Below are positions 54,779 through 64,000 of a DNA stretch of 64,000 nt, piece by piece. Source of the stretch: Phycisphaerales bacterium (GTDB lineage: Bacteria > Planctomycetota > Phycisphaerae > Phycisphaerales > UBA1924). The notes below the pieces were generated by a model, which saw only the letters and a program-made list of their open reading frames with translations, had not been told where the DNA came from and did no database searches. Location: positions 5,627 through 69,626 of the forward strand of contig RECY01000034.1 in assembly GCA_007693785.1 (NCBI GenBank). Direction: 5' to 3'. Within the stretch, counting starts at the first letter, position 1, and every line of letters begins with the position of its first letter. The position numbers and the translations under genes are program-made.

Positions 54779-56596
54779 TCAGTCCACAAGGCGCAGCTGG
54801 GCGCGGACACGGTCCGCGTCGCGCGACCGCCCGTGACGGGCGAGTTCCTCGATCAGCATCTCGTGGATCCGGTAGTGGTTGGACTGCACCCGGAACGCGT
54901 CGCCGGCGTCGCTGGGCGCGCGCACGCGCCGGGCCGCGTCCTGAAGGTACGGGAGGAACTGATCTCGACGCTCGTTCCGGTCGAGCAGGTCGCGCATCGA
55001 GATCAACGCGGCGACCGACATCGGGCCGTCGTTGAGGAACCGCTTCACGATGTCCTCGTACGCCGACCAGGCGTGATCGCGACGCCCGGCCCCCTCCCAC
55101 ATCCGCCCCTGATGAAACCGCACGGCGCTCGCCAGGTCCGGACGGGCGCGGTATCGCGAGAACGCCCAATCCCACATCCGCTGTCGCGAACGCACGTCCG
55201 CCTCGGCGCCGATCAGCGCAACGAGCAGGTCGAACGAGAAATCCTGGTGGGCCGTCCCGCACAGACGCATCAGTGACTGCGCCCAGTCATCGAGCTGACG
55301 GCTGGTCATCTCCCCCGACGCCCCGAACGACGCGACCACCACCCACGCCTCCGGGACGAACGCGCACCGCGTCAACGCGAGGCGAAGCAGACCCAGGCGG
55401 TCGTCGATCCCGCCCGTCCGGGGCTGGCGGAGCGTCGCGCGCCTCTGCACGCCCTCGACCTCGTCCGGCGCTTCGAACGCGCGCCCGCCCCGGTCGCGGT
55501 CGCCACTCGCCGACATGCGCCGGGCCGTGAGCGCCGCGCCCATGGAGGCCCGGATGTCATCCGCGGGCGCGTTCATCAGCCCGCCGAGCAGACCGACGTG
55601 CCCATCAGAAATACGCTCGCGGCTCTGCGGGCAGATGATCTGCCCGCGCAGGTTCTGATAATCCCGGTACCGGCCCTGATCGAAATCCCACCCCGCACGC
55701 TGGCGCGTCTCGAGATAGCCGATCCACGCGTGGGCCACCTGCGCCCCCGCTGCGCTGACATAGCACGAGGGGATCCCCGTCGCCTTACCGACCATCTCCG
55801 CGAAGTACGCCTGGTCGGCGCACACGCCGCCGTGCTGCTTGATCGACTCGATCCGGTAGTTGCCCGCGGCGGTGACGCGTTTCTCGGTGCCGCGTCGGAA
55901 GGCGTCGTTGTCATAGCGGATCTCGAAGAACCGCCGCCCGGGCGAGGGGTGACGCCCGTACTGGCGCATCGCCCACTCGAGCTGCTCGATCGGCTCGGTC
56001 ACGCTGACCACGTGGACCAGCAAAAGCGAGGGCATGCGCGCTGGGTCGTGCTGCAGCGATCGCGCGTGGCGCACGAAGTAGTCGAAGGCATCGAGCGCCT
56101 CCGGCGCGCGCACGGTGTTCTCGTTGATCCGGCGTGTCCAGGGGCGGTCGTGGACCACGCAGACGGCGGCCGCGAGGTTCGGGTACCGCTGCACCTCCCG
56201 CTCGCGCGACTCGGCCAGTCGCAGCGCCAGACCCATCACGCCCGCAGCGTCGTTCTGATCGCGGATCAGCAGCCCGAGCTCCGTCGCAAACGCCGGCGAC
56301 CGCCCCACCGCCCCGAGCGAGCCGAACCGGGCCTTCTCCGCGGTGCGAAGGATCGACAGCGTCCCCTCCGCCCAGCCGACCGCGGCGAGCTGCGAACCCG
56401 ACGCCCACCCGCTCGCAAGATCCGCCACCTCGACGGCTTCCGCGAGGCTCCCCTCCACCCCACCCGGCTCCGAAGCTGCGAGCAGAATCGCCGCGCACCG
56501 CGCCCGAACCGACTCCACAAACACGTCCGCCCACGCCGAAACGCCGGCAGCCGCGAGCGCGACAACAACCACAAACCCCTGAATGCGTCGATCCAT
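54779..56596 (-). CDS. transglutaminase-like cysteine protease superfamily protein
   Basis: ATG at 56596 with a signal peptide. Core GGVCADQAYFAEMVGKATGIPSCYVSA......HAW is a Cys/His transglutaminase-like signature. Confidence 0.6.
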   Translation of the reverse strand: MDRRIQGFVVVVALAAAGVSAWADVFVESVRARCAAILLAASEPGGVEGSLAEAVEVADLASGWASGSQLAAVGWAEGTLSILRTAEKARFGSLGAVGRSPAFATELGLLIRDQNDAAGVMGLALRLAESREREVQRYPNLAAAVCVVHDRPWTRRINENTVRAPEALDAFDYFVRHARSLQHDPARMPSLLLVHVVSVTEPIEQLEWAMRQYGRHPSPGRRFFEIRYDNDAFRRGTEKRVTAAGNYRIESIKQHGGVCADQAYFAEMVGKATGIPSCYVSAAGAQVAHAWIGYLETRQRAGWDFDQGRYRDYQNLRGQIICPQSRERISDGHVGLLGGLMNAPADDIRASMGAALTARRMSASGDRDRGGRAFEAPDEVEGVQRRATLRQPRTGGIDDRLGLLRLALTRCAFVPEAWVVVASFGASGEMTSRQLDDWAQSLMRLCGTAHQDFSFDLLVALIGAEADVRSRQRMWDWAFSRYRARPDLASAVRFHQGRMWEGAGRRDHAWSAYEDIVKRFLNDGPMSVAALISMRDLLDRNERRDQFLPYLQDAARRVRAPSDAGDAFRVQSNHYRIHEMLIEELARHGRSRDADRVRAQLRLVD

Positions 56597-56660: not shown

Positions 56661-56695
56661 TTTTAAAACGAAGCAAGCCCCGGCATTGCCGAGGC
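56661..56695 (-). terminator. intrinsic terminator directly after the tRNA-Lys fragment
   Basis: Minus strand reads GCCTCGG-caatg-CCGGGGC (one G:U pair) followed by TTGCTTCGTTTTAAAATT. Confidence 0.6.
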
Positions 56696-56704
56696 TTACG
56701 GAAG

Positions 56705-56746
56705 TGCCCCCCGAAGGACTCGAACCTTCAACCCGCTGATTAAGAG
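56705..56746 (-). pseudogene. 3' 42 nt of a tRNA-Lys(CUU): anticodon loop through discriminator, with no 5' half
   Basis: Minus strand reads CTCTTAA TCAGC GGGTT GAAGG TTCGAGT CCTTC GGGGGGC A. The preceding CGGCG cannot pair with TCAGC, and I find no D arm or GCCCCCC acceptor strand upstream. Confidence 0.6.
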
Positions 56747-56948
56747 CGCCGCGAGAACCGCCTTCTAGGGCCCGCCAGAGGGGTTCCGGGGTACCCCATC
56801 TGGCCCCAATTGGACAATCCGGAAGGTACGGGATGAGGTACGCCCAATCACGCAGGGCGCTCCATGAGTAGCGATCAGGGCCAAAAGGCAGCCGCGCGGC
56901 GGCCCGACTATTCCGGTCCGACATGGTTCGGCGCCCTCGCCGACGTGA

Positions 56949-59900
56949 TCAGCGGTTCTCTTCGGGAACCGTCGGGGGAGTGGCGTCCTGGAGCGTCTTT
57001 GTCCACGTAACGATCGTGGCATCGTGCCCGGCCTGCGGCTCGCTCGCGTGCCACGCGGTGTACAGCGTGATGAGTGCCTCGACGCATTGTTGCACGCGAT
57101 GGCTTGTCGGTCCCATGGCGTTCAGGAACAACGTGTAAGCTTCGGTAAGTTTGGCCTCTGCGGCATGGAAATCTTGTATGCCTGATCGGGCAACGCCCAG
57201 ATTCAGCAGAAGCCGGGCGAGTGCGCCGGTATCCCGGATCGCCGCACTCCTGCGAAAAGCGGGCTCGGACGTCGAGAGCAGGTCGACGACCTCAGAATAC
57301 CGCTGTTGTTTCAGGAGCAGATCGCCCAAACTCTGAACCGCAGGCGCGAAATACGGATGATCCTCGCCGAGGGTGCGTGTGACACGTTCGATTGCATCCC
57401 GAAAATACGTCTCCGCATCATCGGGTTGATCGAGTTGAGTCGAGAGCGATCCCATGTTGATGAGCAGAACGAGGCGCTCGGGGTGATCTTCACCGAAGAC
57501 TTCGATGCTCGCGTTGAGCGCCTCACGCAGGAACACAACCGCCTCGGCAGGGCGGTTCTGACGCTGCATGAGAAATCCCATCACGTTATACGATATCAGT
57601 GTGCTTGGATGATTCCGGCCGAGCAGACGCAGGCGCGCATCGAGCGCCGCGCGACAGAGTCGCTCGGCCTCCTCGAAGCGTTCCAGAGGAATCAGGAACG
57701 TCGCCAGGTTGCTCATCGCGTTGATGGTGTTGGGATGGTCACTGCCCAGCACCGCTTCGGACTGCTTCAGCACATCCCGCTGCAGGACTTCGGCTTCCTC
57801 CATCTTGCCGTTGCGGCTCATCGTGGCTGCAAGGTTTCCGATCACTGCGAGCGTGGTGGGGTGCAGGCTGCCCAAGACGCGGCGAGCGCTCTCGACGGCG
57901 AGGACACCAACTTCCTCGGCTTCGGTCAACTTGCCCTGTTGCAGTAGGAGAGCCGCAAAATTCCGCTGCGATTGGATGGTCTCGGCGTGATCGTCCCCGA
58001 GCAGGCGTCGGCGTCGCTCCAGCACTTCCCGCTCGAGTGGCTCGGCGTCCGAGTACCGCCCCTGATCGCGCAGCACACTGGCTATATTCGACATGGCGAG
58101 CATCGTCAGTCGATGATCGTCCCCAAGTATGCGTCGCTGGTCCTCCAGAACCTCACGAAAGACCGCCTCCGATTCGATATATCTCGCTTGATTCGAGAGC
58201 GCGGAGCCGAGCTGGCTGCTGGCGGAAAGCATCAACGCATGATCAGCTCCGAGCCTGTCGAGGTGCTTGTCGAGCAGCCCACGTAAATTTATTTCGGCTT
58301 CTGCGCTGCCACCACGGTCATCGAGAAGTCTGTATTCATGGATACGCGCTTTGATGGTGTCGGGATGATCCTCGCCGACCGAGGCACGGAGTAGCTCGAC
58401 TTGCCTCTGGCATGCGTCCCAGGCGCTGTCGATCAAGCCGAGGTCGCCGTATCGCTCGGCGATCGCGCCGAGAAGCTTGGCCTGAACGAGGGGTTGATCG
58501 GCGAACTGCCGGTCGATCTCGGAGAGCGCGGGCGTGAGGATCGTCGAGTCGATGAGCTGTAGCGCGATGTCGGTGGCGTTGAGACGCGCCCACCCATTGG
58601 CAAAGGCTGCAGACTGCACACCGCGTTCTGCCTCCGGGATGCCGGCATTGATAAGGGCCGCGTCGAATCGCTCCCGTGCATCCTCTGTCAAGCGCAGCCC
58701 GGCGGCGGCGGCGTCGACCTGCGACAGCATTTGAGATTGGAAGTCAGAGACCGCTTGCAACTCGTCCGCCCGCCGCTCGGAGACCGCCTCCGCCAAGACG
58801 GCTCGGTCACGCTGGGCACCGACGAGCTTCGCCTGCCAAGCGAAGCCGACGACGCCGATCAGGAGGGCCACCATCACCGCGCTGGCCGCGGACACATTGA
58901 CCCAGTTGCGGCGTACGAACTTGCGGAGTTGATAGCTCCGACTCGGCGGGGCTGCGAGCACGGCCTCGCCGTTCAGGTACCGCTCGATATCCGCCGCGAG
59001 ACCGCTCGCTGTTTCATATCGCCGGGTTCGGTTTTTCTCCAGCGATTTCATCACGATCCAGTCGAGATCGCCCCGGATGAGCGCATGAAGGCGCCCGGGC
59101 TCGATCTTTCGTGCGGCCGCGACCGAGGCGACGCCGCTGGCGGATTGCGACAGGCGTGTGGACGGCTTCGGGGGGTCCACCTCGCGGATGATGCGCTGCA
59201 TCTCGCCGTAGGCCGCCGAGCGGAGCTCCTTCGCCGAGAAAGGCGTGGACCCGGTGAGCAACTCGTAGAGCAGCACGCCGAGGGCGTAGATGTCGCTGCG
59301 GGTGTCGATGTCGAGGTCGCCGTCGGCCTGCTCTGGGCTCATGTATTCGGGTGTGCCGATGAGCTGGCGGTGCTCGGTGAAGAGCGTCTTCTCCGTCAGC
59401 CGAGCCTGCGTGGTCTTGGCGATGCCGAAGTCGATCACCCTCGCGAGCGGGCGGGCGTCCTGCATCGACACCAGAATGTTGCTCGGCTTCAGGTCCCTGT
59501 GGATGATCCCCTTGCTGTGGGCGTGCTGGACAGCCCGGCAGACCTGCCCAAAGAGCGACAGGCGTTCTCCGATATCCATCGCATGGGTATCGCAGAACTT
59601 GGAGATCGGTTCGCCTTTCACCAGGTCCATGACGAAGTACGGGCGCCCACTCTCGGTCGCGCCGGCGTCGAACACCTTCGCGATGTTGGGATGGTCCATC
59701 ATCGCCAGCGCCTGGCGCTCGGCCTCGAACCGCGCGATGATCTGCCGCGTGTCCATGCCAAGCTTGATGATCTTGATCGCCACTTTCCGATCCACGGGGA
59801 AGCGCTGTTCGGCCATGTACACCGAGCCGAACCCGCCCTCCCCGAGCAGTTCCAGGAGGCGGTACGGTCCGATGGTTGTTCCGGGGCCTTCCTGAACCGG

Positions 59901-60191
59901 GGCGGGACCGAGCGCGGAGGGTCGATCGAACGCTTCCTCGAGCTGCGCCGCCTCCGTGAACCCCGCTGTGGGCGCGTTGAGAAAGTGATCGTCCTCGGCC
60001 GCCGCGATCATCGCCTCGACCCGCTGCCTCAGCGCGACATCACGCCCGCACGCTTGTTCAAGCAGCGCAGCCCGGTCCGCGGATGGTGTCGAGAGCGCGA
60101 GATCAAAGATCCGGCGCAGCTCGTGGTGGTGCTGTTCGCCCAAGGGAACTCCTGTCAAACCCTGCCGGACTCGATCGCTTCGCGGAGCCAT
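56949..60191 (-). CDS. Ser/Thr protein kinase with one TM helix and a long C-terminal TPR array
   Basis: Kinase motifs GEGGFGSVY, VAIK, HRDLKPSNILV, DFGIAK and GTPEYMSPEQ, followed by more than 10 TPR-like repeats. The start is ambiguous: ATG at 60191, a TTG at 60158 forming a TTGA overlap with the sigma stop, or a TTG at 60143 with AGGAG upstream. Confidence 0.85.
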   Translation of the reverse strand: MAPRSDRVRQGLTGVPLGEQHHHELRRIFDLALSTPSADRAALLEQACGRDVALRQRVEAMIAAAEDDHFLNAPTAGFTEAAQLEEAFDRPSALGPAPVQEGPGTTIGPYRLLELLGEGGFGSVYMAEQRFPVDRKVAIKIIKLGMDTRQIIARFEAERQALAMMDHPNIAKVFDAGATESGRPYFVMDLVKGEPISKFCDTHAMDIGERLSLFGQVCRAVQHAHSKGIIHRDLKPSNILVSMQDARPLARVIDFGIAKTTQARLTEKTLFTEHRQLIGTPEYMSPEQADGDLDIDTRSDIYALGVLLYELLTGSTPFSAKELRSAAYGEMQRIIREVDPPKPSTRLSQSASGVASVAAARKIEPGRLHALIRGDLDWIVMKSLEKNRTRRYETASGLAADIERYLNGEAVLAAPPSRSYQLRKFVRRNWVNVSAASAVMVALLIGVVGFAWQAKLVGAQRDRAVLAEAVSERRADELQAVSDFQSQMLSQVDAAAAGLRLTEDARERFDAALINAGIPEAERGVQSAAFANGWARLNATDIALQLIDSTILTPALSEIDRQFADQPLVQAKLLGAIAERYGDLGLIDSAWDACQRQVELLRASVGEDHPDTIKARIHEYRLLDDRGGSAEAEINLRGLLDKHLDRLGADHALMLSASSQLGSALSNQARYIESEAVFREVLEDQRRILGDDHRLTMLAMSNIASVLRDQGRYSDAEPLEREVLERRRRLLGDDHAETIQSQRNFAALLLQQGKLTEAEEVGVLAVESARRVLGSLHPTTLAVIGNLAATMSRNGKMEEAEVLQRDVLKQSEAVLGSDHPNTINAMSNLATFLIPLERFEEAERLCRAALDARLRLLGRNHPSTLISYNVMGFLMQRQNRPAEAVVFLREALNASIEVFGEDHPERLVLLINMGSLSTQLDQPDDAETYFRDAIERVTRTLGEDHPYFAPAVQSLGDLLLKQQRYSEVVDLLSTSEPAFRRSAAIRDTGALARLLLNLGVARSGIQDFHAAEAKLTEAYTLFLNAMGPTSHRVQQCVEALITLYTAWHASEPQAGHDATIVTWTKTLQDATPPTVPEENR

Positions 60192-60742
60192 CCCCGTGCG
60201 AACGCCCACGCTCTCTTCACCGTCGGCTCCGAAACGCCGATCGCCGCTGCCGTTTGCTTGATGCTGAGACCGGCGAAATATCGAAACCGAACGACCCGCG
60301 CGGCTTCCTCGTCGACCTGCGCGAGCCTGCTGATCGCCTCGTCGAGTACGAGGAACCCGGAGGTTTCCGTCTCCGATCCCAGGTCCGGGAGTCGGTTGAG
60401 GTTCACGGCCGCACGGCGCGCGTCGGGCCCGCCGCGGACGGCGGCTGCCCTAGCCCGCGCGTGATCGATCAGAATCCGACGCATGGCCTCTGCGGCCGCG
60501 GCGTAAAAGTGCGCGCGGCTCTGCCACGGCAACTCTCGCGGGCCCGCCAGCTTCACATACGCCTCGTGGACCAGAGCCGTGGCCTCGAGCGTGTGATCAG
60601 GACGCTCAGACCGAAGGTAGTTCTGAGCCGACGCGCGGAGCTGAGCGTACACGAGCGGGAGGAGTTTCTGAACACGCTGCGCGGAGGTGTCCTGTTCATT
60701 GAGCATGATCGTCAGCGCGGCGTCGTGAGTGTCGGAATCCAT
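60155..60742 (-). CDS. ECF-type sigma-70 factor of the kinase-associated (TIGR02999-like) group
   Basis: LLPLVYAQLRASAQNYLRSERPDHTLEATALVHEAYVKL, plus a region-4 HTH (LSIKQTAAAIGVSEPTVKRAW). Confidence 0.8.
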   Translation of the reverse strand: MDSDTHDAALTIMLNEQDTSAQRVQKLLPLVYAQLRASAQNYLRSERPDHTLEATALVHEAYVKLAGPRELPWQSRAHFYAAAAEAMRRILIDHARARAAAVRGGPDARRAAVNLNRLPDLGSETETSGFLVLDEAISRLAQVDEEAARVVRFRYFAGLSIKQTAAAIGVSEPTVKRAWAFARGWLREAIESGRV

Positions 60743-60841: not shown

Positions 60842-61840
60842 TCACTCGAGTGTCCGGCGTTGTTCGGCGTTCCGGAACACGTGCAACCCAAGCTGTGTCG
60901 AGAGGGCTTCGCACACCCGGATCCCGCGAACACTGTTCCCCCCGGTGTTCAGACGGGGGGAGTAGACCGCCACGCCGAGCCGCCCGGGGACCACGGCCAT
61001 GAACCCGCCACTGACGCCGCTCTTGGCGGGGATACCGACGCGGTAGGCCCATCGCCCGGATTGCTCGTAGAGCCCGCAGGTGAACATCACCGTGAGCACA
61101 TCGCGGAGCGAGACGGGCGAGATCGCCCGCGTGCTCGTCCGCGGGTTGACGCCGGCGTTCGCGAGCGTCGCCGCCATGGTCGCAAGCTGGACCGTGTTCA
61201 CGGTGATCGAGCACATCTGGAAGTACAGATCGAGCGTCTCGTCGAGATCGCCGCCGAGCCGCCCGAAATTCCGCATGAGATACGCGATCGCGCGGTTCCG
61301 ATCCGCGGTGCTGCTCTCGGAGATAAAAACACCCATGTCGATCGCAGGGCGCTCGCCGATGTGCAGCGCGATGGCTTCGAGAGCGCGGTTCAGACGGTCG
61401 GTCGGATCGTGGCCGGGCAGAAGCCCGGCGATCGCGATCGCGCCGGCGTTGACCAACGGGTTCATGGGCCGGTTCGTGCCCCGCTCGAGCACGACCGCGT
61501 GGTAGGGGTTGCCGGTCGGCTCAACGCCCACGGCTCGTTCGACAGCGCTGCGCCCGAGCTGGTCCAGCGCCATGCCGTACATGAACGGATTGGCGATCGA
61601 CTGCAGCGTGAAGCCGGTGTCGGCATCGCCCACCGAGAAGACCTCGCCCTCGCACGTAACCACGCTGATCGCGAATGTGCCCGGATCCACACGCGCAAGC
61701 TCGGGGATGTAGGCGGCAACCTCGCCTTCGGTGTTGCCGGACAGTTCAGCGTGCAGGTCGTTGATCGCGGCTAGAATCCGGATGCTGGGTCGGCTGGAAC
61801 GCAGCAGGATGGTCCGGTCGGTCTTCTGGGTGGGAATCAT
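60842..61840 (-). CDS. glsA: glutaminase A
   Basis: YIPELARV, FTLQSIANPFMYGMAL, NPLVNAGAIA and [11 protein letters not shown]. Confidence 0.9.
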   Translation of the reverse strand: MIPTQKTDRTILLRSSRPSIRILAAINDLHAELSGNTEGEVAAYIPELARVDPGTFAISVVTCEGEVFSVGDADTGFTLQSIANPFMYGMALDQLGRSAVERAVGVEPTGNPYHAVVLERGTNRPMNPLVNAGAIAIAGLLPGHDPTDRLNRALEAIALHIGERPAIDMGVFISESSTADRNRAIAYLMRNFGRLGGDLDETLDLYFQMCSITVNTVQLATMAATLANAGVNPRTSTRAISPVSLRDVLTVMFTCGLYEQSGRWAYRVGIPAKSGVSGGFMAVVPGRLGVAVYSPRLNTGGNSVRGIRVCEALSTQLGLHVFRNAEQRRTLE

Positions 61841-62020
61841 GCGGTTGATCCTTGTTGAATTCGGATGACGCGGTCAGACGGACACGGATTCGCCGTGCTG
61901 TGAAATATCGAGACCGATGGCCTCATCCGCATGGCGGACACAGATAACCCCGGGCCGCAGGTGCCATCAGCAGCACCAGCCCAACACCGATGATGATGAA
62001 CGCGACGCCCCCGCTGTTGT

Positions 62021-63154
62021 TCACGCCGTGGCCTCCGACGTGCTGCGGGCGTGACCGTTGGCCTCGGTCGGGTTCGACATCTGAGCGCCCGCGGCCAGTT
62101 GACCTTTGGCGCTGGCGTCGGCGTCGAGCATCGTGGGCGGCGCGTCAGACGATGCCCAGGCGCCGGGTGAGGTCAGCGTAGCGTCGAACATGTGCATGCC
62201 GAACTCGGAGGAAAGATCCTGGCAGACGCGGATGCCGCGGACCGTGTTGCCGCGTTCATCCAGGCGTGGCGAGTACACCGCGATGCCGAGCTGATTGGGC
62301 ACGACCGCGATGATGCTGCCCGAGACGCCGCTCTTGGCCGGCAGCCCGACCGAGTAACCCCACTGCCCGGCATAGTCGTACATCCCGCATGTGTACATCA
62401 CGGTGAGGATGTCGCGGAGGTACGCGGCATCCACGGCGCGCACGCCCGTGATGGGGTTGACGCCGTTGTTGGCGAGCGTAGCCGCCATCATCGCCAGGTC
62501 CCGGCAGTTCCCGAGGATCGAGCACTGCTGGAAGTACAGGTCCAGGATCTGATCGACGTTGCTGCCGATCATCCCGAAGTTGAGCATCAGATAGGCAATC
62601 GCGCGGTTGCGGTTGCCCGTCGTCCGCTCGGACATGAACACGGACATATCCACCTGGACCTGACGCCCGAAGTATCGCCCGAACATGTCCAGGATCCGGT
62701 TCAGGCGCGTCGTGGGATCGTCGCCTTTGATCAGGCTGGTCGTCGCGATCGCCCCCGCGTTCACGCACGGGTTGTGCGGGCGGTTGGTCGCGTCCAGCTT
62801 GATGATGGAGTTGAACGCGTCCCCGGTGGGCTCGACCCCGACCCGCTCGAGCACCGCGTCCCGTCCGTGGTCCTCGAGTGCTAAGCCGTAGATAAACGGC
62901 TTGGAGACCGATTGGATCGTGAACTGACGCTCCGCGTCGCCGATCTCATAGACCTGCCCGTCTGCGGTCACCACGCAGATTCCGAACCAGTCCGGGTTCG
63001 CCTTGGCGAGCTCGGGGATGTACGTCGCGATGTCGCCGTCTCGCAGATCGCGGTAACGAAGATGGAGCTCGTTGAGGGCCGCCAGCACCCGGAAGTGCGT
63101 GGTGCTGGTGGCGACCGAGATGATCTGGGGCGTTTCCTGCTCGTGTGTGCGCAT
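62021..63154 (-). CDS. glsA: glutaminase A paralogue with a ~50-aa C-terminal extension
   Basis: [34 protein letters not shown] and [11 protein letters not shown]. Confidence 0.9.
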
Positions 63155-63178: not shown

Positions 63179-64000
63179 TCAGCGGGAGAAGAGCATGTCG
63201 CGGTATCGGGGCAGGTCCCAGTCCGCGTCCGCACAACGGGATTCGATGTGGTCGGCGAGCGTGCGAGCTTGCTGCATCAGCGGGACGATCGAGGCCTGGA
63301 TGCTGACCGTCGGCTGCGCCGCCTCGCCCGCTCCGTGGTGCTCGGAAGCACCGGCCAGGGCGGACGCCTCACGCAGACGGTCGACCACATCGGCCAAGGC
63401 GTCCGCCGCCGCGAGCAGGTCCGCCGCCCGAGCGGCGAGATTGCCCGCCGCCCCGCCGGTCGCACCGCACTCGATGCCGGCGTGATGGAACCGGGCGACA
63501 GAACGCAGCGCGCCCGGCATCACGTGCTCCTCACAGATCGCCGCGAGGCACCGCGCCTCGATGACCATCTGCGTGCGGTACTGCTCGGTGTACGCCTCGT
63601 GGCGGGAAGCCAGCTCGCGCGGGCTGAGCACGCCGAACCGTTCAAAGACTTCGACGACGCCCGGCTCGGTGTAGATCTGGAAAGCCTCCTCGCTCGTACG
63701 GATGTGCGCCAGCCCGCGCCGCTCGGCCTCGGCGTGCCACTCCCGGCTGTAGCTGTCCCCGTTGAAGATGACCCGACGGTGCTCCGCGGTCACGCGGGCC
63801 AGGACCGGGAGGATCGCTTCCGAAACCTGCGCCGGCGTCAGACGGGCGCCGACGTGCATCGCTTCCAGCTCGTCGGCCATGTCGGCGAGCGACTCCGCGA
63901 CGATCGTGTTGAGCACCGTGCTCGGCCAGCTGACCGACGAGGACGCACCCGAGGCCCGCAGCTCGAACTTGTTGCCCGTAAACGCAAAGGGCGATGTGCG
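63179..64000 (-). CDS. glnN: type III glutamine synthetase (GlnN), C-terminal part; 5' end beyond the window
   Basis: The frame is open to position 64000. My translation there reads SPFAFTGNKFELRASGASSSVSWP, then VLNTIVAESL...FNGDSYSREWHAEAERRGL, which is characteristic of GS-III. Confidence 0.75.
   Translation of the reverse strand, partial: RTSPFAFTGNKFELRASGASSSVSWPSTVLNTIVAESLADMADELEAMHVGARLTPAQVSEAILPVLARVTAEHRRVIFNGDSYSREWHAEAERRGLAHIRTSEEAFQIYTEPGVVEVFERFGVLSPRELASRHEAYTEQYRTQMVIEARCLAAICEEHVMPGALRSVARFHHAGIECGATGGAAGNLAARAADLLAAADALADVVDRLREASALAGASEHHGAGEAAQPTVSIQASIVPLMQQARTLADHIESRCADADWDLPRYRDMLFSR

What the first reader, a model, noticed from the sequence alone, without database searches (positions are those of the whole stretch)
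56661..56746. Orphan 3' half of tRNA-Lys(CUU) with its own terminator: a likely integration scar
The minus strand from 56746 to 56705 reads CTCTTAA / TCAGC / GGGTT / GAAGG-TTCGAGT-CCTTC / GGGGGGC / A. That is an anticodon loop with anticodon CUU, a 3' anticodon stem, a 5-nt variable loop, a complete T arm, a 3' acceptor strand and a discriminator. The five nucleotides before it (CGGCG) cannot pair with TCAGC. No D arm or complementary acceptor strand exists upstream, so only the 3' 42 nt of the tRNA are present. A strong intrinsic terminator follows 9 nt later (56695 to 56661). A break at the anticodon loop is the classical crossover point for tyrosine-integrase elements. In that model the displaced native 3' half and its terminator stay at the distal junction, and the intact tRNA with the integrase sits at the other end. 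The element would then lie at coordinates above 56746. That region holds about 200 nt of non-coding DNA and then the TPR kinase, ECF sigma and glutaminase genes.
Basis: partly seen in the sequence, partly recalled or inferred. Interest (0 to 1): 0.6.

Follow-up and report, generated by a model that had tools for sequence, protein, structure and literature searches.

The report
tRNA-Lys fragment marks integrase-less island
The orphan half-tRNA is the far-end scar of a 10.6-kb block of foreign DNA that inserted into the tRNA-Lys(CUU) gene of a Phycisphaerales bacterium; this is a textbook genomic-island signature, unusual only because the island carries no integrase and looks like two elements fused together.

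Summary
Window 56705-56746 (minus strand) is an exact copy of the last 42 nt of this genome's only tRNA-Lys(CUU). ARAGORN and Rfam find no complete tRNA there.

The intact gene lies 10.6 kb away on the same contig and strand, just past the window end. The two copies share 60 identical bases, or 71 of 72. The repeat starts at the anticodon loop and runs through the terminator hairpin.

A same-genus relative has the empty site: rpmF, then tRNA-Lys with its terminator, then the orthologue of the secreted-protein gene.

The insert has 63.9% GC against 69.4% for the genome. It encodes an Xre/Fic "mobile mystery" pair, a second and divergent glutamine synthetase III, two glutaminases, an ammonium-transporter relic, an ECF sigma factor and a TPR Ser/Thr kinase.

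It holds no recombinase gene or detectable remnant. It also has an internal second copy of the 84-nt arm next to a decayed core, which points to a composite element.

In this bacterial family 15 of 121 genomes carry such duplicates. All six arrays examined break at the same anticodon loop and have a tyrosine integrase in or next to them.

Verdict: this is an ordinary integration scar (attR) of an integrase-less, CIME-like island. It is a new member of a known kind, of modest interest.

The parts
56705..56746 (-). Displaced 3' half of tRNA-Lys(CUU): anticodon loop through discriminator. This is the tRNA part of the attR core.
   Evidence: Sequence read. It is 42/42 identical to the intact gene. 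There is no cloverleaf.
56675..56746 (-). Direct repeat (attR copy). It has 60 nt exact (56687-56746), 71/72 identical, and about 94% identity over 82 nt to the attL copy at C19 72939-73020.
   Evidence: family D3.
56663..56699 (-). Intrinsic terminator of the native tRNA-Lys locus. Its hairpin lies inside the repeat and its U-tract diverges from the attL copy. It now ends the kinase operon.
   Evidence: The twin terminator at attL is, and the homologous terminator in the G001 empty site is.
56758..56841 (-). Island-side arm (P arm, copy A) with the GGGGTACCCC palindrome/hairpin. A second copy, 93% identical, lies inside the island at C19 71247-71330.
   Evidence: (family D2).
56949..60209 (-). 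Island cargo: TPR Ser/Thr protein kinase.
   Evidence: Pfam Pkinase and TPR_10/TPR_12.
60155..60742 (-). Island cargo: ECF sigma factor (PF07638 type).
60842..61840 (-). Island cargo: glutaminase A paralogue 1.
61880..62018 (-). Relic of an ammonium-transporter gene. Only the first ~21 and last ~20 codons are left.
   Evidence: tblastn with the Amt of L061. A full amt sits at this position in L061 and a 56-aa relic in L059.
62021..63154 (-). Island cargo: glutaminase A paralogue 2.
63179..64000 (-). Island cargo: second, divergent glutamine synthetase type III. It runs off the window and ends at window-equivalent 65467.
   Evidence: It is 56% identical to the genome's core copy on C32 and 52-58% to full-length copies in relatives.
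54779..56596 (-). Native right flank: a secreted protein gene with no Pfam family. Its orthologue (71% aa) directly follows tRNA-Lys in relative G001.

Best explanation
The 42-nt fragment is the native 3' half of tRNA-Lys(CUU). It was displaced when a circular element recombined with the gene inside the anticodon loop, so it is the attR core of a 10,587-bp genomic island (C19 62373-72959, window 56747 onward). The island brought its own copy of the tRNA 3' half plus terminator hairpin, and this regenerated an intact gene at attL (C19 72977-73050). Read in tRNA direction, the structure is: rpmF (divergent) | tRNA-Lys with core | P' arm with a cluster of four ACTACC motifs (three GACTACC, one AACTACC) | xre | fic ('mobile mystery protein B') | terminator | P arm copy B | decayed core | GSIII | glsA | amt relic | glsA | ECF sigma | TPR kinase | P arm copy A | core (the finding) | native terminator | secreted-protein gene. 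The island encodes no recombinase. It is therefore a decayed or dependent (CIME-like) element that cannot excise on its own, and the fragment itself is a non-functional relic. The native terminator behind the fragment is now positioned to terminate the kinase operon. Shown here: the repeat, the intact gene, the empty site in a relative, the foreign composition, the xenologous GSIII, the missing integrase and the internal arm copy. Inferred: insertion was catalysed by a tyrosine integrase of the kind found at the same site in related genera; the element is a fusion of two related elements; and it arrived as one unit, because the outer repeats are 71/72 identical while the internal core is about 73% decayed.
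For: Only two copies of the 60-mer exist, both on C19, on the same strand, 10.6 kb apart. The intact tRNA-Lys(CUU) is at C19 c[72977-73050]. The empty site is in same-genus G001: rpmF, tRNA-Lys, terminator, then the 71%-identical orthologue of the right-flank gene. rpmF is also present on the left in this genome at 97% aa identity. Island GC is 63.9% against 69.4% for the genome, and only 0.45% of equal-sized genome windows are as low. The island GSIII is a second copy, 56% identical to the core copy and 52-58% to full-length copies in 38 of 40 relatives. Its cargo block is colinear and 78% identical in DNA to an ordinary chromosomal cluster in another Phycisphaerales MAG. Fic scores above the curated cut-off for TIGR02613. 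PF00589 has no hit on C19 at E<=1. All seven ORFs have other Pfam families, and the unannotated gaps are at most 570 nt. tblastn with 13 integrases finds no remnant. The 84-nt arm is duplicated at 93% and followed by a decayed core, with local score 24 against 13+-2.2 in shuffles (1 of 2000). In the family, 15 of 121 genomes have at least two copies of the 42-mer. All six arrays examined break at the same anticodon-loop position and have PF00589 integrases in or beside them.
Against: No integrase, excisionase or transfer gene is present, so integrase-mediated insertion is inferred only from the break point and from related islands. Neither arm has a match in 400 genomes of the order, and short exact sub-motifs of the P arm were not found in viral or metagenome collections, so no parent element with an integrase was found. 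The history of the composite cannot be reconstructed, because simple in-situ sequential integration does not explain a decayed middle core between near-identical outer ones.
Confidence: 0.85

Rival explanations
1. A self-sufficient integrative element: a classical island or prophage whose own tyrosine integrase lies next to the intact tRNA.
For: The break point, orientation, intact tRNA and empty site all fit this model. Related islands at the same site do carry integrases.
Against: The whole repeat-bounded segment is contiguous on one contig and fully accounted for by seven non-recombinase genes. PF00589 six-frame search finds nothing on C19. tblastn finds no remnant. The left flank beyond the tRNA is rpmF, as in the empty site.
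Confidence: 0.03
2. Integrase-independent insertion: a circular DNA carrying about 70-80 bp identical to the tRNA-Lys/terminator region entered by RecA-mediated single crossover (Campbell-type). This also leaves a direct repeat.
For: The repeat is long (72-82 nt) and extends 30-40 nt past the tRNA end into the terminator. No integrase is present.
Against: The left edge of the repeat coincides with the first base of the anticodon loop, as in six independent integrase-associated arrays in other genera. An arm repeated next to a core and the clustered ACTACC motifs beside attL look like attP arms. Two of those other arrays (L065, L067) also show identity extending past the tRNA end.
Confidence: 0.07
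3. Metagenome-assembly artefact: the lower-GC 10.6-kb block belongs to another strain or organism and was spliced into the contig through the shared tRNA sequence.
For: The genome is a MAG. The block differs in GC. The repeats are the kind of sequence that causes graph tangles.
Against: A false join would need the block to be bounded by the core on both sides in its true source, so it would be an island there anyway. The exact repeat is only 60 nt, which ordinary reads span. Each junction combines a native-side and an island-side sequence in the order predicted for attL and attR.
Confidence: 0.04
4. An old fixed remnant or a functional tRNA-like or small RNA, unrelated to any current island.
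For: There are weak sub-threshold Rfam matches (Pxr 19.5 bits, tRNA 15.3 bits). A hairpin-rich arm lies upstream.
Against: The relative has an empty site. The fragment is 100% identical to the live gene. Folding is no better than shuffles, z = -1.19. The arm is found in no other genome of the order.
Confidence: 0.01

Closest known systems
tDNA-targeting genomic islands, the Islander signature (Hudson et al. 2015, PMC4383910; sublocation classes of Williams 2002, cited there)
   Same: There is a regenerated tRNA gene at one end and a displaced 3' tDNA fragment in direct orientation at the other. The crossover is centred on the anticodon loop. The content is foreign and the island is absent from a relative.
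   Different: There is no integrase gene, so the Islander filters would reject it. The repeat extends about 30 nt beyond the tRNA into the terminator. There is an internal second arm with a decayed core.
CIMEs (cis-mobilizable elements) and accretion arrays of ICEs/IMEs, reviewed by Guedon et al. 2017 (PMC5704250)
   Same: By definition a CIME is an element that has lost integration and transfer genes but keeps attL and attR. Composite structures arise by accretion at one tRNA site, and tandem arrays at tRNA-Lys occur in related genera here.
   Different: No relic of conjugation or mobilisation genes shows descent from an ICE or IME. No resident partner element lies at the site in this genome. 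Mobilisation is untested. The host is a planctomycete rather than a firmicute.
Integrase-bearing tRNA-Lys(CUU) islands of the same bacterial family (for example G102, G447, G440, G023, G133; loci L062, L063, L066, L065, L067)
   Same: They use the same target gene and the same break at the anticodon loop, and are 10-16 kb in size.
   Different: They carry PF00589 integrases, some with an Arm-DNA-binding domain. They share no arm or cargo sequence with this island.
TIGR02612/TIGR02613 'mobile mystery protein A/B' (Xre-Fic pair)
   Same: Fic scores 145 bits, above the cut-off of 124.4, and sits directly downstream of an Xre-type HTH gene at the tRNA-proximal end of the island.
   Different: The Xre partner scores below the cut-off (40.5 against 122.6). 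Homologous pairs in other Phycisphaerales are not next to tRNA-Lys or integrases.

Membership tests
tDNA-integrated genomic island (Islander definition) | Intact target tRNA gene at one end | tested here: met
   ARAGORN finds tRNA-Lys(ctt) at C19 c[72977-73050]. It is identical to the G001 gene.
tDNA-integrated genomic island (Islander definition) | Displaced tDNA fragment in direct orientation at the other end | tested here: met
   A 60-nt exact repeat on the same strand, 10,647 nt apart.
tDNA-integrated genomic island (Islander definition) | Tyrosine integrase gene inside the island | tested here: not met
   PF00589 has no hit on C19. Pfam assigns other families to all ORFs. tblastn with 13 integrases finds nothing.
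tDNA-integrated genomic island (Islander definition) | Insert absent from a related genome with both flanks conserved | tested here: met
   G001 has rpmF, tRNA-Lys, terminator and the orthologous gene.
CIME (cis-mobilizable element) | attL and attR retained while integration and transfer genes are absent | tested here: met
   The repeats are 71/72 identical. There are no recombinase or transfer genes.
CIME (cis-mobilizable element) | Derived by decay from an ICE or IME | tested here: inconclusive
   No conjugation or relaxase relics were found. Only an internal arm with a decayed core shows an earlier element junction.
CIME (cis-mobilizable element) | Can be excised or mobilised by an integrase supplied by a co-resident element | not testable with these tools
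No cognate integrase was found in this assembly. The tRNA-Val island integrase uses a 20-nt 3'-end repeat, which is a different sublocation.
Functional tRNA gene | Complete cloverleaf with acceptor and D arms | tested here: not met
   ARAGORN finds 0 genes. The Rfam tRNA model gives 15.3 bits against a gathering score of 29. No complementary 5' strand is visible in the sequence.
Prophage | Phage structural or replication genes | tested here: not met
   The seven ORFs are a kinase, a sigma factor, two glutaminases, GSIII, Fic and Xre.

The most novel reading that the evidence does not exclude
The 10.6-kb block may be a still-mobile, integrase-less satellite island. It would be a fused pair of elements that keeps a complete attP-type arm set, with P arms held at 93% identity while the internal core decayed. 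It would be moved in trans by the tRNA-Lys(CUU)-specific integrases that circulate in this Phycisphaerales family. It would spread a self-regulated nitrogen module (GSIII, two glutaminases, ECF sigma and Ser/Thr kinase) together with an Xre-Fic addiction pair.
Probability: 0.2. Interest if true: 0.45.

Novelty: new member of a known kind. Interest (0 to 1): 0.28.

Why it matters
The finding maps a horizontally acquired block to single-base precision in an uncultured planctomycete (Phycisphaerales). It shows that the neighbouring kinase, ECF sigma, glutaminase and GSIII genes, which other first-stage notes flagged separately, are cargo of one insert and not native genes. It identifies tRNA-Lys(CUU) as a recurrent integration hotspot in this family. 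It also adds an example of an integrase-less att-bounded element outside the firmicute systems where CIMEs were defined. It does not change any concept.

Tried and rejected
I searched for the parent element in several ways. The P arm (107 nt) against 400 genomes of the order matched only its own two copies. Exact 31-mer and 23-mer arm motifs were not found in viral or metagenome contigs.

Fic homologues in 34 public genomes are not near tRNA-Lys, share no arm sequence and have no integrase within 10 kb. The Xre-Fic pair is therefore not a marker of this element.

A family-wide BLAST with the 91-nt tRNA plus terminator listed only full-length matches and did not expose fragments. The pattern search did.

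The sub-threshold Rfam matches (Pxr, CRISPR-DR33, GNAS-AS1) were judged to be chance. Folding the arm plus fragment gave no signal, z = -1.19.

I considered the tRNA-Val island integrase on C32 as a trans-acting candidate and set it aside, because it uses a 20-nt 3'-end repeat and not the anticodon loop.

Full report
**Observation**

It has a CUU anticodon loop, the 3' anticodon-stem strand, a 5-nt variable loop, a full T arm, the 3' acceptor strand and a discriminator. No complementary 5' strands lie upstream.

ARAGORN finds no tRNA in the window. Rfam finds nothing at gathering score. At relaxed threshold the tRNA model reaches only 15.3 bits against a gathering score of 29.

A terminator follows at window 56699->56663: a 12-pair stem with a 3-nt loop, then TTCGTTTTAA.

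**The other copy**

The window is C19:5627-69626 of a 3.06-Mb, 45-contig assembly. ARAGORN on the whole assembly finds one tRNA-Lys(CUU), at C19 c[72977-73050]. It is on the same contig and strand, 10.6 kb beyond the fragment and just outside the window.

The longest shared stretch is 60 identical bases: the last 42 nt of the tRNA and the next 18 nt. It occurs only at these two places in the genome. With one mismatch in the terminator loop the repeat is 72 nt. At about 94% identity it runs 82 nt, through the U-tract (family D3).

Both copies are therefore followed by a terminator hairpin. The left edge of the repeat is the first base of the anticodon loop.

**Empty site**

The gene downstream of the fragment encodes a 605-aa secreted protein with no Pfam family. 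Its orthologue in the same-genus genome G001 is 71% identical.

That orthologue sits about 100 nt downstream of an intact tRNA-Lys(CUU) with a homologous terminator. Upstream of the tRNA, both genomes have rpmF at 97% aa identity.

Both flanks are therefore syntenic, and the 10,587 bp between the repeats (C19 62373-72959) is an insert relative to G001.

**Content of the insert**

Pfam and NCBIfam assign all seven ORFs. In tRNA direction they are:
- an Xre-type HTH protein, with a weak TIGR02612 match
- a Fic protein matching TIGR02613 'mobile mystery protein B' above its cut-off
- a glutamine synthetase type III
- a glutaminase
- a second glutaminase
- a PF07638-type ECF sigma factor
- a TPR Ser/Thr kinase

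Several results show the insert is foreign:
- Its GC is 63.9% against 69.4% for the genome, and only 0.45% of equal-sized genome windows are as low.
- The GSIII is an extra copy. The genome keeps its own on C32, 56% identical, and the full-length copies in 38 of 40 relatives are 52-58% identical to the island copy.
- The closest database relatives are 71-79% identical.
- In one Phycisphaerales MAG (GCA_007693765.1) the whole block GSIII-gls-gls-ECF-kinase is colinear at 78% DNA identity. It sits in an ordinary chromosomal setting without arms or a tRNA.
- Two further contigs have the same genes in other orders, one with a full ammonium transporter between the glutaminases.

**No recombinase**

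A six-frame PF00589 search of the assembly finds seven hits, none on C19. The unannotated gaps in the insert are about 200, 570, 290 and 180 nt, which is too short for a recombinase gene. tblastn with 13 integrases from this genome and from related islands finds no remnant. The only matches are artefacts where ORFs read antisense through the tRNA.

**Composite structure**

The 84 nt next to the fragment (window 56758-56841) recur inside the insert at C19 71247-71330 with 93% identity. They lie between the fic terminator and the GSIII gene.

The internal copy is followed by a sequence that aligns to the core at roughly 73% identity with gaps. Its local alignment score is 24 against 13+-2.2 in shuffles. 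That score was reached by 1 of 2000 shuffles and by none of 682 other island windows.

Beside the attL core, the only three exact GACTACC motifs of the 12.7-kb locus, plus one AACTACC, lie within 60 nt. I read the 84-nt repeat and this motif cluster as attP-type arms. This is inference.

The outer repeats are 71/72 identical while the internal core is decayed. In-situ sequential integration is therefore hard to fit. The simplest reading is that a fused pair of related elements with a dead internal site arrived as one unit.

**Context in the family**

Public Fic homologues place the organism among Phycisphaerales. The 42-mer, allowing up to 3 mismatches, occurs at least twice in 15 of 121 genomes of the family.

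I fetched six arrays with both copies on one contig. All break within a base or two of the same anticodon-loop position. All contain or abut PF00589 integrases, some with an Arm-DNA-binding domain.

In one of them (G024) the repeat-bounded segment itself lacks an integrase, and one lies just beyond it. That is a tandem array of the kind described for CIME/IME accretion (PMC5704250). None of these islands shares arm or cargo sequence with the present one.

**Interpretation**

The finding is the displaced native 3' half (attR core) of a tRNA-Lys(CUU)-integrated genomic island. This is exactly the signature used by Islander (PMC4383910). The island fails that definition's integrase criterion and matches the definition of a CIME: att sites kept, integration genes lost.

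The fragment itself has no function I can support. Folding is no better than shuffles, and the arm occurs in no other genome of the order. Its native terminator now lies at the end of the kinase operon.

**Limits**

No parent element was found. The genome is a MAG, so a chimeric join cannot be formally excluded, though the junction architecture argues against it.

**Verdict**

It is an ordinary kind of feature with a modest twist, namely an integrase-less composite carrying a nitrogen-metabolism cargo. It is a new member of a known kind.

Noticed in passing
window 61880-62018 (minus): The 180-nt spacer between the two glutaminase genes keeps the first ~21 and last ~20 codons of an ammonium-transporter gene. 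It is 80% identical over aa 388-407 of the Amt at the same position in L061. This is an internal-deletion relic and probably explains the '33-aa CPPC peptide' noted earlier.
   Followed up: yes
family genomes; loci L062-L067: tRNA-Lys(CUU) is an integration hotspot in this Phycisphaerales family. 15 of 121 genomes have at least two copies of the 3' half, with tandem arrays and at least two integrase types. One type lies at the distal end with an Arm-DNA-binding domain. The other abuts the core on the opposite strand.
   Followed up: partly
G000 C32:28698-38244 (outside the window): The same genome has a classical island at tRNA-Val(CAC). A 451-aa PF00589 integrase ORF abuts the tRNA, and a 20-nt direct repeat of the tRNA 3' end lies 9.5 kb away. 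The tmRNA gene on C42 is also followed by an integrase.
   Followed up: partly
L060 14743-16207: In an ENA contig carrying the homologous GSIII-gls-gls block, a tRNA-Arg(CCT) directly follows the second glutaminase and is followed by a Fic_N/Fic gene. This may be another tRNA-linked insertion next to the same cluster.
   Followed up: no
L001 11667-11700 (C19 72666-72699), just upstream of the xre start: There is a near-perfect palindrome, TCGTATCgtgtatGATACGA, in the xre promoter region. It is a plausible operator for the Xre-type repressor of the xre-fic pair.
   Followed up: no
window 56780-56820 (minus): The arm contains the self-complementary GGGGTACCCC inside an 11-pair imperfect hairpin (GCCAGAUGGGG...CCCCUCUGGC), identical in both arm copies. 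The weak Rfam Pxr match (19.5 bits against a gathering score of 80) rests on this hairpin and is judged to be chance.
   Followed up: partly
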